Assembly: GCA_964016885.1 (NCBI GenBank)
Contig: OZ024748.1
Coordinates: 20,398,001 to 20,462,000, forward strand
Source of the DNA: Eledone cirrhosa
Lineage: Eukaryota
Length of the DNA stretch: 64,000 bases
Direction of reading: 5' to 3'
The position numbers were made by a program, and so were the translations under genes. Below are positions 9,925-63,994 of the stretch, piece after piece; positions within the stretch are counted from its first letter, which is position 1, and each line of letters starts with the position of its first letter. A model generated the notes under the pieces. The model searched no databases. It was given only the letters and a program-made list of their open reading frames with translations, and was not told the DNA's origin.

Positions 9925-10156
9925 ACAAATGGAAACTATATTTATAAAACCATATTTATTTTATTATACATATTTCAAGGGCCACCAAGGCAAATTATGG
10001 TGCGCTTTCATCAGATAAAATACAATACAGATTAGTTTGATAAATAAATATTGACATACCCTGAAAAAAAGACAACCTTACCAGTGAGAGCTTCCTGGAC
10101 AGTGCTTTATATTTTTAAGCTTGTTGGATCCCAACAAATTAAATATAACCTCTGCA
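9925..10156. mobile_element. Penelope-like terminal fragment with internal inversion
   Basis: Homologous to 20330-20720; the ribozyme part is on the minus strand and the terminal part on plus; flanked by (TA)n. Confidence 0.65.
9957..10022 (-). ncRNA. Minimal type I hammerhead ribozyme motif
   Basis: UAUUUUAU CUGAUGA [stem II aagcgcacca..ugguggcccuu] GAAAU AUGU AUA AUAAAAUA; stem I is 8 bp. Confidence 0.72.
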
Positions 10157-10177
10157 TATATATATATATATACATAT

Positions 10178-10300
10178 AACGAAGGAAGTGTGGTAAGGAA
10201 CCAGATGGACCATAACACACCAAAGTACTCAATACTTAGGGTAGTAGGGAAATGTGTAACCCTGACGGCAGAGCTCAAGCCGTTTCGACGGCTATTTTCA
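10178..10300 (-). mobile_element. Family B Penelope-like terminus (single arm) in (TA)n
   Basis: Matches 15023-15218, 59381-59590 and 62073-62293. Confidence 0.6.
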
Positions 10301-10658
10301 TATATATAGAGAGAGAGAGAGAGAGAGAGAGAGAGAGAGAGAGAGAGAGAGAGAGAGAGAGAGAGAGAGAGAGAGAGAGAGAGAGAGAGAGAGAGATTGT
10401 GTGTATAAATGATAAGAAACATTTACTGATACAATGGTTCCATGGTAGAGTCTGATATTTATATATATATGTGTTTATATATATATGTGTGTGTGTGCAT
10501 GTGTGTGCATACGTGTGCATGTTACTTAACTGGTACTTGGCTTTTGACAATACTAATGAATCAGCAATGATTACCCAACATAAGTGAAACTCAAGTACCA
10601 TGTAATGATTGATGAATGAATGGATATATATATATATATATATATATATATATACACA

Positions 10659-10737
10659 CAGGGTGACCCGAAAAATAGATACACACTTTTATTAGAATGC
10701 TGTTGAAGTGTGCATACATTTTTTGTGGGACACCCTG
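10659..10737. mobile_element. Tiny Tc1/mariner-type MITE
   Basis: TIRs cagggtg..ccc..aaaa / tttt..ggga.caccctg. Confidence 0.55.
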
Positions 10738-10874
10738 TGTATATAGACATGCATATATACATTCATACAGATATATATATATATTGTTATATTTTATGAG
10801 GGTCAGGCTGCCAATTAAAACACAGACCCCTGTGGAGTTTCACTTCAGTTTTTATTATCTGACAAGTAATTAGG

Positions 10875-11265
10875 TGGTGAATTGGTAGTATTGGTAGCGA
10901 GTTAGACATCATGCTTTCTTGCATATAGTTACAACCCTTTACATTCTGAGTTCAAAACCCACTGAGGTTAGCTTTGATTTCATCTTTACAGAGTTTGATC
11001 ATAAAGGACCGTAACTCTTTGCTGCAAAGCATGGCGTCTGACCCTAAATGGTTTCTAATTCAGGCACAAGGCCTGGGGAAAGTCAGTTTAAGGGGAGGGG
11101 AAAGTCAATTAAATCAACCCCACTGCATTACTGGTACTTTATTTTCTGAGTTCAAATCCTGTTGAGGTTAACTTTATTTTATCAACCCCGTAAGGATGAA
11201 AGGCAAAGTACCAGTAATACACTAGGATAATTGCTGGCCTTGTGCCAAAAGTAGAAACAATTATT
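10875..11265. mobile_element. Rearranged SINE family A fragments
   Basis: Pieces of the consensus in both orientations; central core inverted at 11171-11209. Confidence 0.7.
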
Positions 11266-11656
11266 AAGGTGGTTTAGTCAGGTAACTAATCCAATCATTG
11301 GTTGGTTTAGAAACCGGATGTTTAGTAATTGTTCTTTTGTCACACAACCTGTAACCTTTTCAGCTGGTGATTAGATAATAACTCACCTGACTAATAACAA
11401 AAAACTGAAGTGAAACTCAGCAGGTGTGGCGTGTTTTTTTGGCAACATGACGTACCCAAAGCATAACAATACCTGTTACAACACAAGATTTCACATCAAG
11501 AATTTTGTAAAACAAAGACAAACATTTTTTTTTTTTTTTTTTTAATATATATATATATATATATAAATATATATATATATATATATATATATAAATATAT
11601 ATATATATATATATATATATATATATATAAACATATATATATATATATATATATAT

Positions 11657-11993
11657 AGGCACATGGCTTAGTGGTCTTGCAATCGAAAGGTTGTGAGTTC
11701 AATTCTCAGACCGGGTGATGTGTTGTTTCCTTGAGCAAGACACTTTATTTCACATTGCTCCAGTTTACTCAGCTGTAGAAATGAGATGATAGGGCCTGGG
11801 GTCCATATCATTCCACTGCAAAGTGGTCGTGGAGGTGCCACGGCAAAAAAAAAAAGCACCCACCACTCACTGTAAATGAGGTTGGTGTTAGGAAGGGCAC
11901 CCAGCTGTAGAAATCAAGCCAGAATCAGTTCCCGTCACACCCTTGCAAGCAGGGAAAAAGCAGACGTAAAATGAAATGATGTAATGATGATGA
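11657..11993 (+). mobile_element. tRNA-derived CORE-type SINE family B with RTE-derived tail
   Basis: ggcacatggcttagtgg A-box-like head; gagttcaatt B-box-like; ccttgagcaagacacttt CORE-like; (GAT)n tail. Confidence 0.85.
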
Positions 11994-60495: not shown

Positions 60496-62072
60496 TGAAC
60501 TTTTTTGTGTTTAATATAAGGAACTGTTTCATTGTTTTATTCATTATTTTTTTAATATTTTATATATATATATATATATTTATATATATACATATATATA
60601 TAGTGTAATAATAATAAATTTTGAAGACTAAAATCAAAAGAGGGCTCGATAAGGATAAATATATATAAAATATATATAAGAACCATAAAACAAATATTTA
60701 TTAACAATATATATAGAAACAAAACAAATAAAAAAGAATCTTACTTTAAATATCTGTAAGAATTAAATGATATCCAAAGATTAGTCGAAAATGTTTCTTC
60801 AGAACTTTAAATTCTTGTCAGAGAAGCAGAGAGAATATTTCTACAAGTTGACAGTGTGACACTCAAGAGTCATATATGATTAGTGGAGAAATTCAGCACT
60901 GAGTGTGTAAAAGATATGTGTGTATATATATATATATATATATATATATATATATATATATATATATATATATATATGTATATTGATATATGTATTGTGT
61001 CTTCTTATGTATTGGGTGTATATGAATGAGATATATGTTGAATAGTTTTGAATGTAATCAATTGTATATGTGAATGAATGTATGTATGTCTATATATATA
61101 TATATATATATGTGTGTGTGTGTGTATGACGTCTCTTATATATGTATGAATTAGTGGGTGTGTATATGTGTGTATATGTGAATTAATCTGTATGTGTAAT
61201 GTGCATGGTGTATATGTATTTGTTGAAAACCTGAAGAAGTTATAATCCAAGCTGCTACTGTGTTGAATGTATCAGAAGCAGTGGTGTAGAGGTGTGTAGT
61301 GGTGTAGCGTAGCTAGTCTGTGTCCTCTGTATGAAATATATGATTGGCTTTCTTACCTGTTTACACCTGAGCAATTTTTTGCTGGAACTACAACACCCAC
61401 CTACTGTTAACGAGCTGGGTATAATGTGTTAGGCTGGCATTGTTATACTATGCTGAAGAATTGACTATGTACAATAGTGGTGTACTTTTGACCCAATAAC
61501 AAATACAAAAATCAATTGATTAGAGAGAGAGAGATAGATAGAGAGAGAGAGAAAGAGAAAGATTGATAAAGAGAGAGAGAGGAAGGGAGAAAGGAAGAGA
61601 GAGAGAGAGAGATGTGCATGTTTACATGTGTGTGTATGTGTTTGGTGTGATTGTGTGTGTATGTATGTAATATGAATAGTATCATATGTATTACAAACAC
61701 ATACATAGGTGTAAAAATATAGAGAGATAAACCATCACATACATATCTACATATATACACACATACATACATACACACGCATTCATACATACATGCATGC
61801 ACACATTCACACATATATACATACATACACATTCATACATACATACATGAACACATATATTCATATACATGCACACACATTTATGTATGTAGGTATTTAG
61901 ATAGATAATTATGTGTCTCTTAAACTAAATATAGCTTTATCTCTTTTTAGTTTGCTATATTTTCATGACTGGGTATAATGTGAAGTAAGCATATTGTGTG
62001 TGTATATATGTGTATATATGTATATATATATATATATATATATATATATATATATATATATATATATATATA

Positions 62073-62293
62073 TGAAAAGATCCAGGGCCCCGACGGCTGA
62101 GCTCCAGCCATTTTGACAGCTAGATTCGACCTAAGCCACCAGACTGGTGGCTTAGATTGGAACTGGCTGTTGAAATGGCCAGAGCTCAGCCGTCGAGGTT
62201 CTGAAGTTTTTCACATTACCCACTCTACTACCCCAAGTATCGAGCACTCTGGTGGGTTATGGTCCACCTGGTATTTTACCACACTCTCTCTAA
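62073..62293 (+). mobile_element. Diverged family B fold-back element
   Basis: Imperfect arms around aagccaccag-a-ctggtggctt; same terminus. Confidence 0.6.
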
Positions 62294-62704
62294 TATATAT
62301 ATATATGTATATATTCATTTTATTAAAGGTAAATAGTAAGTTTTATTACTCAGGATTTTCGCCAGTTTAACACAGAATAATCAGACAACAACCCTGTGAT
62401 AAACCAGTAAAACTCAGAGTAACAAGACTCAATGCTTAGCTTTAATAAAATGAATATATATATATATACACATTGTGTCTGATGACCCTATGATAGAGAG
62501 GCAAAACTCCAGAGTAACAAGACTCACTATTTAGCCTTAATAAAATGAATATTATAACTCTACTTCAGTATTGAGTACTCTTTTCTCTCAGCTGTCAACC
62601 ACATACACAGACAAGATTTTACATCCGTGTGTGTGTGTGTGTGTGTGTGTGTGTGTGTGTAGAACAATAAAAAACAGAAAACAGGCGTAGGTAGATATAT
62701 ATAT

Positions 62705-62890
62705 ATCATCATCATTATCGTTTAACGTCCATCTTCCATGCTAGCATGGGTCTGGACAGGAATTGCCCCAATTGAGGCAAGATTGGTTGTCTTGCTCAGG
62801 ACTGTCTGGCGGGTTTTCTATGGCTGGATGCCCTTCCTAACACCAACCACGTTTACAGTGTGGACTGGGAGGTTTTTACCGTGTTACCTA
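62705..62890 (-). mobile_element. RTE 3' UTR fragment
   Basis: Matches 14830-15020. Confidence 0.8.
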
Positions 62891-63330
62891 CCAGGATTTT
62901 GTTGGTATTTCTGTTTACTTTTTACATACATAAACGTATATATATATATGTGTGTGTGTGTGTATGTATATATAAATATATATATATATACATATATATA
63001 TATACACACACACACACCTAAACACATACATACATATACATTTGTACATAACTACAATAGCCATTAAGGTAAAACTGTGTCCATCAGTCAGTATAAATGA
63101 GGTAGGGGAGGGATAGAAATGTAAAAAAATAAGTATTCAGGGTATGTCATTTACCTACTTGAAATCAATAATTTAAACCCTGACACTTTAAAACAATCCT
63201 AACCCTGCTGACCTCCCAACCACCATGCCCTCTGATTATACACTACAATATACAAACCAATTATATTAATACCATTTGTTTATGGACAGTAGTAGTTTTT
63301 AAGTTTATGGTTCTGATTTTTTATATTTAC

Positions 63331-63664
63331 ATCATTTCATTTTTACGTCCACTTTTCCCTGCTTGCAAGGGTGGGACGGGAACCGATTCTGGCTTGATTT
63401 CCACAGCTGGATGCCCTTCCTAACACCAACCTCATTTACAGTGAGTGCTAGGTGCTTTTTTGCCGTGGCACCTCCATGACCACTTTGCAGTGGAATGATA
63501 GGGACCCCAGTCCCTATCATCTCATTTCTACAGCTGAGTAAACTGGAGCAACGTGAAATAAAGTGTCTTGCTCAAAGAAACAACACATCACCCAGTCTGA
63601 GAATTGAACTCACAACCTTTTGATTGCAAGACCAATGCTCTAACCACTAAGCCATGTGCCTCCA
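63331..63664 (-). mobile_element. SINE family B
   Basis: Full consensus in reverse. Confidence 0.88.
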
Positions 63665-63863
63665 TATATATGTATATATACTTATGCTCATCATCATTGT
63701 TTAATGTCCATCTTCCACACTAGCATGAGTTGGACAGTTTAGTCCCACTTGAGGTGAGATTGGTCGGGAGACTATGTCTCGCAGAAGAGACTATCGCTGG
63801 CATGTTTTCTACGACTGTATGTCCTTCCTAGCACCAACCACATTTAGAGTGTGCTATATATAT

Positions 63864-63994
63864 ATATTTAATATAGAAATGGCTTCTACAGGACTAGTAC
63901 AGTTTCATTCGGGAGAAATCATCAGGGCTTTCCTGATGATTTCTGCCGAATGAAACAGTTCTAGTCCTGTAGAAGCCATTTCTATATTAAATAT
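63864..63994. mobile_element. Fold-back element centred on back-to-back hammerhead-like cores
   Basis: tcatcag (63919-63925) / ctgatga (63933-63939) ... gaaac; about 60-bp arms; TA flanks. Confidence 0.6.

What the first reader, a model, noticed from the sequence alone, without database searches (positions are those of the whole stretch)
9957..63994. Dispersed set of non-coding, (TA)n-targeted fold-back elements carrying hammerhead ribozymes on both strands
Seen in sequence: at least seven loci (9957, 16632/16784, 20372/20523, 32284/33034, 39190/39571, 60350, 63919/63933) carry CUGANGA-stemII-GAAA-(N)UH cores. Their primary sequences mostly diverge, but stem I still pairs (UUUUAU/AUAAAA, AUAUUUUGU/AUAAAGUAU, UUAUUU/AAAUAA). 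Five are arranged as diverging inverted pairs, and all sit in TA-rich microsatellite. Established: Penelope-like elements carry minimal type I hammerheads in their pseudo-LTRs and can show inverted 5' segments. Inference: these are either a very abundant class of fold-back Penelope insertion products or short non-autonomous ribozyme retroelements (retrozyme-like) mobilised by the GIY-YIG element at 33326. Either would place ribozymes in transcripts of both polarities at roughly one locus per 10 kb.
Basis: partly seen in the sequence, partly recalled or inferred. Interest (0 to 1): 0.85.

Follow-up and report, generated by a model that had tools for sequence, protein, structure and literature searches.

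The report
Hydra-clade Penelope ends with hammerheads
The seven hairpin-like sites are the ribozyme-motif-bearing ends of seven different, very abundant Penelope-like jumping-gene families of a known group (Hydra), most laid down head-to-head in TA repeats; they are real but of a known kind, and the shortest copies likely record where each family's RNA begins.

Summary
The observation largely holds. All seven loci carry type I hammerhead motifs: 7 descriptor hits against 0.022 in shuffles, five loci head-to-head, ends in TA repeats. Two arms are defective (39190, 63919), and 60350 has a 115-nt stem II. They are neither one non-coding family nor partners of the element at 33326. Six loci trace, through genomic copies, to their own RT + GIY-YIG frame with Hydra-clade motifs; the seventh does so through an 87%-identical sister subfamily. 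The 33326 element is an unrelated Penelope-like family. Fold-back junctions mostly differ from copy to copy, and usually only one arm carries the 3' tail. This is the published Penelope pattern; Hydra elements with hammerheads in (TA)n are already listed for Octopus bimaculoides. Two exact patterns count 89,872 motifs in the 3.0-Gb genome. One point was not found in the papers read: 5' ends pile up at an initiator-like site, and only 9 of 465 lie at the predicted cleavage site. Short copies are therefore likely complete cDNAs of uncleaved, pLTR-initiated RNA. Cleavage and expression were not tested.

The parts
9907..10155 (-). Hydra family A: 5'-truncated pLTR copy (hammerhead 9957-10022, predicted cut after 9965) preceded by a short inverted tail piece (10109-10155)
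   Evidence: RT/EN frame in tandem-type locus L345
16485..16903 (.). Hydra family B: head-to-head pLTR pair; minus arm (hammerhead 16632-16703) carries the roughly 95-nt tail, plus arm (16784-16855) does not
   Evidence: full pLTR-ORF-pLTR copy L353
20329..20721 (.). Hydra family C: head-to-head pLTR pair, cores at 20429 (minus) and 20531 (plus); tail on the plus arm; young family (99-100% identical copies)
   Evidence: ORFs in L244, L350, L351
32126..33140 (.). Hydra family D: head-to-head pair with 3' UTR; hammerheads 32282-32352 (minus, with tail) and 33032-33102 (plus)
   Evidence: sense EN match upstream in 15 of 30 loci; ORFs in L348, L349, L493
33323..34661 (+). Unrelated Penelope-like element: inverted tail piece (33323-33354), 5'-truncated GIY-YIG frame (33512-34138), hammerhead-like core at 34404 without a clear stem I, end reaching into the first codons of its ORF
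39148..39662 (.). Hydra family E: head-to-head pair, no tail on either arm; plus core 39575 (predicted cut after 39613), minus core with U4-to-C change
   Evidence: EN match in L119 and L144, continuity to the hammerhead read by eye in L121
60336..60563 (+). Hydra family F: solo pLTR; hammerhead with 115-nt stem II (core 60356, second half 60478, predicted cut after 60489)
   Evidence: pLTR runs into a Hydra ORF in L389
63859..64000 (.). Hydra family G: minimal head-to-head pair; plus core 63933 (predicted cut after 63971, tail continues past the window end), minus core 63925 without stem I 5' strand
   Evidence: sister subfamily with tandem ORF, L490
15019..15228 (.). Other copies at 10169-10297, 59373-59590 and 62160-62303

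Best explanation
The loci are 5'-truncated 3' ends (pseudo-LTRs) of seven distinct Hydra-clade Penelope-like retrotransposon families, inserted at TA repeats mostly as head-to-head pairs, and they were likely made by each family's own RT-endonuclease protein copying uncleaved element RNA. Steps. (1) Shown: each end is continuous, in other genomic copies, with a long 3' UTR and an RT + GIY-YIG frame, and in tandem copies the pLTR and its tail run on towards or into the next ORF; for family G this is shown only for a sister subfamily. (2) Inferred: a promoter in the pLTR starts RNA at an initiator-like site 5-90 nt upstream of the hammerhead core. (3) Inferred from the PAc element in vitro: the endonuclease nicks AT-rich DNA and reverse transcription starts inside the RNA at either of two sites, giving the two fixed 3' ends that are shown here, about 65-120 nt apart. 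(4) Inferred: priming just behind the upstream pLTR gives short cDNAs that run to the RNA's 5' end; priming behind the downstream pLTR gives long, variably truncated copies. (5) Inferred: two cDNAs primed from opposite sides of the target are joined head-to-head at short microhomologies, one usually with and one without the tail. (6) Predicted: the hammerheads cleave weakly, as dimers or with protein help, and cleavage is not needed for insertion.
For: ORF links. Hydra motifs seen in those frames: RW-type N-terminal motif, DKT, YRDD, CxCX5C linker, CxxC and CxH in the endonuclease, matching the definition in PMC8557442 section 11 and the printed Hydra-1_Obim lines. Two fixed 3' ends flanked mostly by TA repeats (family B +108 in 17 arms and about +219 in 22; family C +100 in 15 and +203 in 27). 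Orientation: 26 head-to-head pairs among the first 100 listed of 66,437 hits and no same-sequence tail-to-tail pair within 6 kb (hand count). Junctions: mostly distinct; in 26 position-picked pairs, 13 distinct among 16 family-G-type and 7 among 8 family-D-type (hand comparison), and one junction seen three times occurs in two subfamilies with the tail on either arm. 5' ends within -4..+6 of the initiator-like site: 27 of 52, 23 of 41, 15 of 61, 8 of 14, 34 of 122, 58 of 93 and 7 of 23 in seven families, with few ends just upstream. In both family-G subfamilies the 5' edge lies 30 nt after the first base of a TATA box although the sequences differ (hand count). 5' ends within 3 nt of the predicted cleavage site: 9 of 465. 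Stem III hexamers differ among families but stay palindromic, as expected for dimer-dependent motifs (PMC4209133).
Against: No RNA data bear on start sites, cleavage or expression. The initiator-like anchors were chosen after seeing the peaks; the samples are best-scoring hits and by-catch; the uniform expectation is lenient because truncation favours short copies. In family G the peak lies 4-9 nt downstream of the anchor first chosen and coincides with stem I, so a structural RT stop also fits. The 33326 family shows no cluster (1 of 18). Some junctions recur. For the window's own family-G subfamily no ORF was found in 30 copies picked for the longest upstream part. The family-E link rests on two inverted-arm matches and by-eye continuity. 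The fold-back counts include spurious TA-repeat matches in families A, D and E. No tree was built.
Confidence: 0.88

Rival explanations
1. The same Hydra origin, but the 5'-end peaks are reverse-transcription stops or recombination hot spots at RNA structure (for example the 5' strand of stem I), not RNA 5' ends.
For: In families F and G the peak coincides with the 5' strand of stem I. Anchors were chosen after the fact.
Against: In families A, B, C and D the edge lies about 65-90 nt upstream of the core, and in the U3-A8 family inside loop II. The 30-nt TATA spacing holds in two diverged subfamilies. A TATA box plus initiator-like motif was described in a rotifer pLTR (PMC3846280) and a pLTR-internal start was mapped in Drosophila (PMC2377424).
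Confidence: 0.3
2. Some short fold-backs, above all family G, have become non-autonomous units that move as such, using Hydra proteins in trans.
For: Family-G copies nearly all start at stem I; some junctions recur; no ORF was found for the window's own subfamily; one locus joins a family-G end head-to-head to a copy of another Hydra family (L456).
Against: An 87%-identical sister subfamily has a tandem copy with a 758-codon open frame (L490); the window's subfamily has copies with about 390 nt of upstream UTR; a recurring junction carries the tail on either arm and occurs in two subfamilies.
Confidence: 0.12
3. The loci are animal non-LTR retrozymes mobilised by the GIY-YIG element at 33326.
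For: Type I hammerheads; animal retrozymes are proposed to derive from pLTRs (bioRxiv 10.64898/2026.07.22.740005); the 33326 family is very young, with 150 scored matches at 98-100% identity.
Against: No alignment between that element and the seven ends; each family has its own ORF; no short head-to-tail arrays at these loci in the tandem-repeat scan or among the first 100 listed hits, whereas such arrays define retrozymes (PMC7229834).
Confidence: 0.02

Closest known systems
Hydra clade of C-terminal EN+ Penelope-like elements (Craig et al. 2021, PMC8557442; sections 6, 11, 12 read, passages, supplement part 2 and passages), including Hydra-1_Obim of Octopus bimaculoides and Penelope-13_HM
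   Same: DKT, RW-type motif, CxCX5C linker, CxxC and CxH, (TA)n targets, sense hammerhead near the 3' end; Penelope-13_HM is listed with an inverted 5'-truncated copy and a hammerhead on both strands.
   Different: Units here are longer (3.8 kb between the two hammerheads in L353, about 6 kb in L490, against under 3 kb) because of long 3' UTRs; tails are about 65-120 nt rather than 30-40; at least eight families and tens of thousands of motifs against one octopus family in that supplement; one family has a 115-nt stem II.
Minimal hammerheads of metazoan Penelope-like elements (Cervera and De la Pena 2014, PMC4209133; passages read)
   Same: [quoted passage not shown]
   Different: Longer stem I in several families (8-11 bp); about 90,000 exact-pattern motifs against the few thousand quoted in the passages read.
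PAc, Poseidon element of Anolis carolinensis (Frangieh et al. 2024, PMC11167929; parts 1-2 of 4 read)
   Same: Two fixed 3' ends defining a tail; pLTR running into the ORF; AT-rich targets; no sign that cleaved RNA is the template.
   Different: Other clade; here the ORF starts downstream of the hammerhead; both 3' ends here are AT-rich and abut TA repeats.
Adineta vaga Penelope elements (Arkhipova et al. 2013, PMC3846280; passages read)
   Same: Direct plus inverted pLTR, one-sided tail, TATA box with initiator-like motif, solo pLTRs, head-to-head junctions.
   Different: That paper ascribes solo pLTRs to recombination or deletion and junction palindromes to self-priming; the passages read do not tie 5' ends to the initiator.
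Animal non-LTR retrozymes (Cervera and De la Pena 2020, PMC7229834; passages read)
   Same: Type I hammerheads in short non-coding repeats.
   Different: Retrozymes are head-to-tail arrays of 150-450-bp units giving circular RNA; these loci are single or head-to-head ends of coding elements.

Membership tests
Hydra-clade PLE | Single ORF with RT and C-terminal GIY-YIG endonuclease upstream of the pLTR | tested here: met
   L349, L490, L493 open frames; broken frames in L345, L350, L353. Family G only through a sister subfamily; family E only endonuclease pieces.
Hydra-clade PLE | DKG changed to DKT and an RWK-type N-terminal motif | tested here: met
   DKT in L350, L389, L490, L493 (DKA in L345); RW/KW-type motif in L345, L389, L490, L493.
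Hydra-clade PLE | CxCX5C linker; CxxC and CxH around the catalytic E and N; no CCHH | tested here: met
   CxCX5C in families A-D and L490; CxxC and CxH read in the translations. Absence of CCHH judged by eye.
Hydra-clade PLE | Canonical hammerhead in the pLTR, sense to the ORF | tested here: met
   Family E mostly carries a U4-to-C change.
Hydra-clade PLE | Insertion into (TA)n | tested here: met
   3' flanks printed; most, not all, are TA repeats.
Hydra-clade PLE | Generally short (under 3 kb) | tested here: not met
   3.8 kb (L353) and about 6 kb (L490) between hammerheads; the source calls this a tendency, not a criterion.
Hydra-clade PLE | Grouping with Hydra references in an RT tree | not tested
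   Reference proteins were seen only as text in a supplement and compared by eye.
PLE insertion architecture | 5' truncation, adjacent inverted truncated copy, one-sided tail, partial tandems | tested here: met
Type I hammerhead ribozyme | Self-cleavage at the NUH site | not testable with these tools
   Structure only; the minimum-energy monomer fold does not give the full three-stem form.
Animal non-LTR retrozyme | Head-to-tail arrays of short non-coding hammerhead units | tested here: not met
Animal non-LTR retrozyme | Monomeric circular RNA | not testable with these tools
   No RNA run available.

The most novel reading that the evidence does not exclude
The short copies are complete cDNAs of capped, uncleaved RNA running from a pLTR promoter to the internal priming sites, so tens of thousands of insertions map each family's transcription start and priming sites in vivo; the start falls upstream of, at or inside the hammerhead depending on family, which shows that Penelope insertion bypasses ribozyme cleavage, in a genome where eight or more Hydra families supply at least 90,000 motifs.
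Probability: 0.55. Interest if true: 0.45.

Novelty: new member of a known kind. Interest (0 to 1): 0.27.

Why it matters
The architecture, the ribozyme motifs, the opposite-strand pairs and the octopus host group are all in print, so this is not a new kind of element. What it adds is scale and a natural experiment. Hydra elements were described from about two dozen mostly cnidarian families; here at least eight families touch one 64-kb window, several with near-identical copies and open frames, which suits them to an in vitro system for a clade not covered by the biochemical paper read. If the 5'-end peaks are RNA starts, the genome gives in vivo support for internal priming on uncleaved RNA, and bears on the open question of what Penelope hammerheads do.

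Tried and rejected
Rfam scan: no hammerhead family among the 150 best of 233 matches shown; hits were microsatellite hairpins and tRNA-like pieces. Pfam: no family for the window endonuclease frame or six element frames. Homologue search with the family-D frame: 7 unnamed hits at 35-40%; no annotation gained. Sequencing runs for a family-C stretch: no RNA holder listed, which is no evidence on expression; no reads were laid. Walking upstream in the window's family-G subfamily ended at TA/TG repeats about 390 nt above the core; a pattern from one copy belonged to another element; a guessed tail-continuation pattern gave 2 hits without ORF. I first read 60350 as a half core and dropped that. The -74 peak for family C is an artefact of a divergent reference and was redone. 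RNAcofold of dimers did not give the active dimer fold and says nothing either way. Earlier findings: none for this genome or for the endonuclease sequence. Paper searches; none of the listings or passages seen ties short-copy 5' ends to start sites, but most papers were read in passages only, subscription papers are not held, and the bioRxiv preprint's supplements could not be seen. The octopus repeat annotation PMC13282606 (passages) has no occurrence of hammerhead or ribozyme. A final scripted tally of boundaries and tail lengths was not obtained, so those figures are hand readings and may be off by a few bases.
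Full report
Setting. The window is G000:C8:20398001-20462000 of a 3.0-Gb genome. Named relatives of its retroelement proteins are from Octopus vulgaris at 52-76% identity, so an octopus-like host is inferred. 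The window is AT-rich and full of microsatellites.

Observation. A strict type I hammerhead descriptor found 5 motifs against means of 0.005-0.045 in 200 shuffles; a relaxed one found 7 against 0.022 in 500. The pair at 20429/20531 has an imperfect stem II and is missed by both, but shows both core halves, stem I and a palindromic stem III. The 60350 motif has a 115-nt hairpin as stem II, with the second core half and the 3' strand of stem I at 60478-60495. Two arms are defective: 39190 has C at core position 4, as do all 15 other copies displayed in full, and 63919 lacks the 5' strand of stem I. Rfam showed no hammerhead among the 150 best of 233 matches.

What the loci belong to. Each locus was searched in the genome; first-look candidates ran from 179 to 2,174, of which 40 were scored each time. 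Walking upstream from 16632 crossed about 1.3 kb of AT-rich UTR into an RT + GIY-YIG frame, and L353 holds a whole pLTR-ORF-pLTR unit in which the tail runs on towards the ORF start. The same was found for 33034 (sense endonuclease match upstream in 15 of 30 loci, some being two arms of one insertion; open frames in L349 and L493), 20523 (L244, L350, L351), 9957 (L345) and 60350 (L389). For 39571 the link is two inverted-arm endonuclease matches and by-eye continuity in L121. For 63919 the window's subfamily could be followed only about 390 nt upstream, but a sister subfamily, 87% identical over 131 nt, has a tandem copy with a 758-codon open frame between two hammerheads (L490). The frames carry DKT, an RW-type motif, a CxCX5C linker, CxxC and CxH. 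These are the diagnostic features of the Hydra clade in PMC8557442 (section 11), whose supplement lists an Octopus bimaculoides family with (TA)n targeting and a hammerhead, and a Hydra family with an inverted truncated copy and a hammerhead on both strands. No tree was built.

The element at 33326. It is a separate, very young family: 150 scored matches at 98-100% identity and open frames up to 1,218 codons. Its endonuclease has a CX4CXXC linker, unlike the Hydra frames. Its full unit gives no alignment to the seven ends. It is itself a small fold-back (inverted tail at 33323-33354).

Architecture. Each family has two fixed 3' ends, mostly abutting TA repeats, about 65-120 nt apart by hand reading. 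In a pair one arm usually has the longer end. Among the first 100 listed of 66,437 hits of a pattern covering families A-D and their relatives I counted by hand 26 head-to-head pairs and no same-sequence tail-to-tail pair within 6 kb; the reversed control pattern had 0 hits. A second pattern for family-G-type motifs gave 23,435, control 0. Together 89,872 motifs, one per about 33 kb, a lower bound; the window is several times denser. In one search (10 loci dropped as second arms or duplicates) distinct junction keys were 22 of 23, 20 of 20, 22 of 25, 17 of 20, 7 of 7, 19 of 19 and 10 of 10, with some spurious TA matches in three families. In 26 pairs picked by position, 13 of 16 family-G-type and 7 of 8 family-D-type junctions were distinct. 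A junction seen three times occurs in two subfamilies with the tail on either arm, which points to independent formation; one seen twice in a single subfamily cannot be decided. PMC8557442 (section 6), PMC3846280 (passages) and PMC4209133 (passages) describe this architecture, the last including hammerhead pairs 100-700 bp apart on opposite strands.

Where short copies begin. In seven of eight families tested, 5' ends show a sharp upstream edge and a peak at or just after a pyrimidine-A initiator-like site: 27 of 52, 23 of 41, 15 of 61, 8 of 14, 34 of 122, 58 of 93 and 7 of 23 within -4..+6, against 0.5-6.8 under a uniform spread; the 33326 family gave 1 of 18 (ends reaching the reference limit, and sets selected on upstream sequence, were left out). 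Family D shows a similar edge about 70 nt above the core in position-picked pairs. In both family-G subfamilies the edge is 30 nt after the first base of a TATA box (hand count). The anchors were chosen after seeing the peaks and the uniform null is lenient, so this is suggestive. Only 9 of 465 ends lie within 3 nt of the predicted cleavage site. In the U3-A8 family the edge lies inside loop II, so short copies hold half a motif.

Mechanism. Shown: element identity, two 3' ends, head-to-head geometry, 5'-end clustering, scarcity of ends at the cleavage site. Inferred: transcription from a pLTR promoter (mapped for Drosophila Penelope, PMC2377424 passages), nicking of AT-rich DNA and internal priming at two sites on uncleaved RNA (shown in vitro for PAc, PMC11167929 parts 1-2), short cDNAs running to the RNA 5' end, and joining of two cDNAs. 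Predicted: weak, dimer- or protein-dependent cleavage, from palindromic stem III hexamers that differ among families and from PMC4209133. Minimum-energy monomer folds do not give the full three-stem form. No RNA evidence was available.

Rivals. Structural stops instead of RNA starts (0.3); a minority of non-autonomous fold-back units, mainly in family G (0.12); retrozymes driven by the 33326 element (0.02), against which stand the missing similarity, the families' own ORFs and the lack of the short tandem arrays that define retrozymes (PMC7229834 passages; bioRxiv 10.64898/2026.07.22.740005 part 1 of 5).

Earlier scan notes reach the same general reading for fold-backs in other genomes; they are unchecked AI notes and were seen after my reading was fixed.

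Verdict. Real features, known kind: new families of Hydra-clade Penelope-like elements. Interest 0.27; 0.45 if the start-site reading is confirmed.

Noticed in passing
window 33323-34661; full copies L051:4639-8292, L052: Very young Penelope-like family with a C-terminal GIY-YIG, an Asn-rich stretch and 131 residues between RT motifs A and B, against roughly 65 in the Neptune line printed in the Craig supplement (by eye). An insertion at this place is described there mainly for N-terminal-EN elements and some Coprina. Relatives in Octopus vulgaris, a sea cucumber and many unnamed records. Clade not determined.
   Followed up: partly
window 10169-10297, 15019-15228, 59373-59590, 62160-62303: A further, very abundant Hydra family whose long copies have a U3-A8 hammerhead core, a variant reported from Schistosoma PLEs; short copies start inside loop II; Hydra endonuclease upstream in long copies.
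   Followed up: yes
window 60346-60500: Hammerhead with a 115-nt stem II, kept in family copies at 97-99% identity; invisible to descriptors with short stem II limits.
   Followed up: partly
window 59101-59217, 59582-59669, 60598-60709: Pieces of another TA-flanked repeat family with fold-backs, a tail and a 5'-end peak; no clean hammerhead recognised.
   Followed up: partly
window 59957-60092: Short perfect fold-back between TA repeats whose ends resemble the tail end of family B; only one other match among my loci.
   Followed up: no
L456 (G000:C3:207367500-207375000): A family-G end joined head-to-head to a copy of the U3-A8 family; either a chimeric insertion from two RNAs or a nested insertion.
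   Followed up: partly
window 38991-39042 and 21899-21976: Isolated end fragments of the 33326 family and of family F.
   Followed up: no
window 58702-58777 and 26146-26326: Other short inverted repeats around TA tracts, flagged as microRNA-like hairpins below gathering score; the 58704-58775 one matches mir-9 at 51.5 bits (cut-off 58.6) on both strands.
   Followed up: no
window 14014-14622, 17095-17727, 40236-41246: 3' fragments of a LINE-type element, two in inverted orientation 2.5 kb apart at 91%; a PHD finger is matched in the last.
   Followed up: no
window 40016-40073 and 63593-63656: tRNA-like heads of a probable SINE.
   Followed up: no
window 1447-4461, 22148-25452, 36847-38502, 43579-44556: Long minisatellite arrays with units of about 50 bp.
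   Followed up: no
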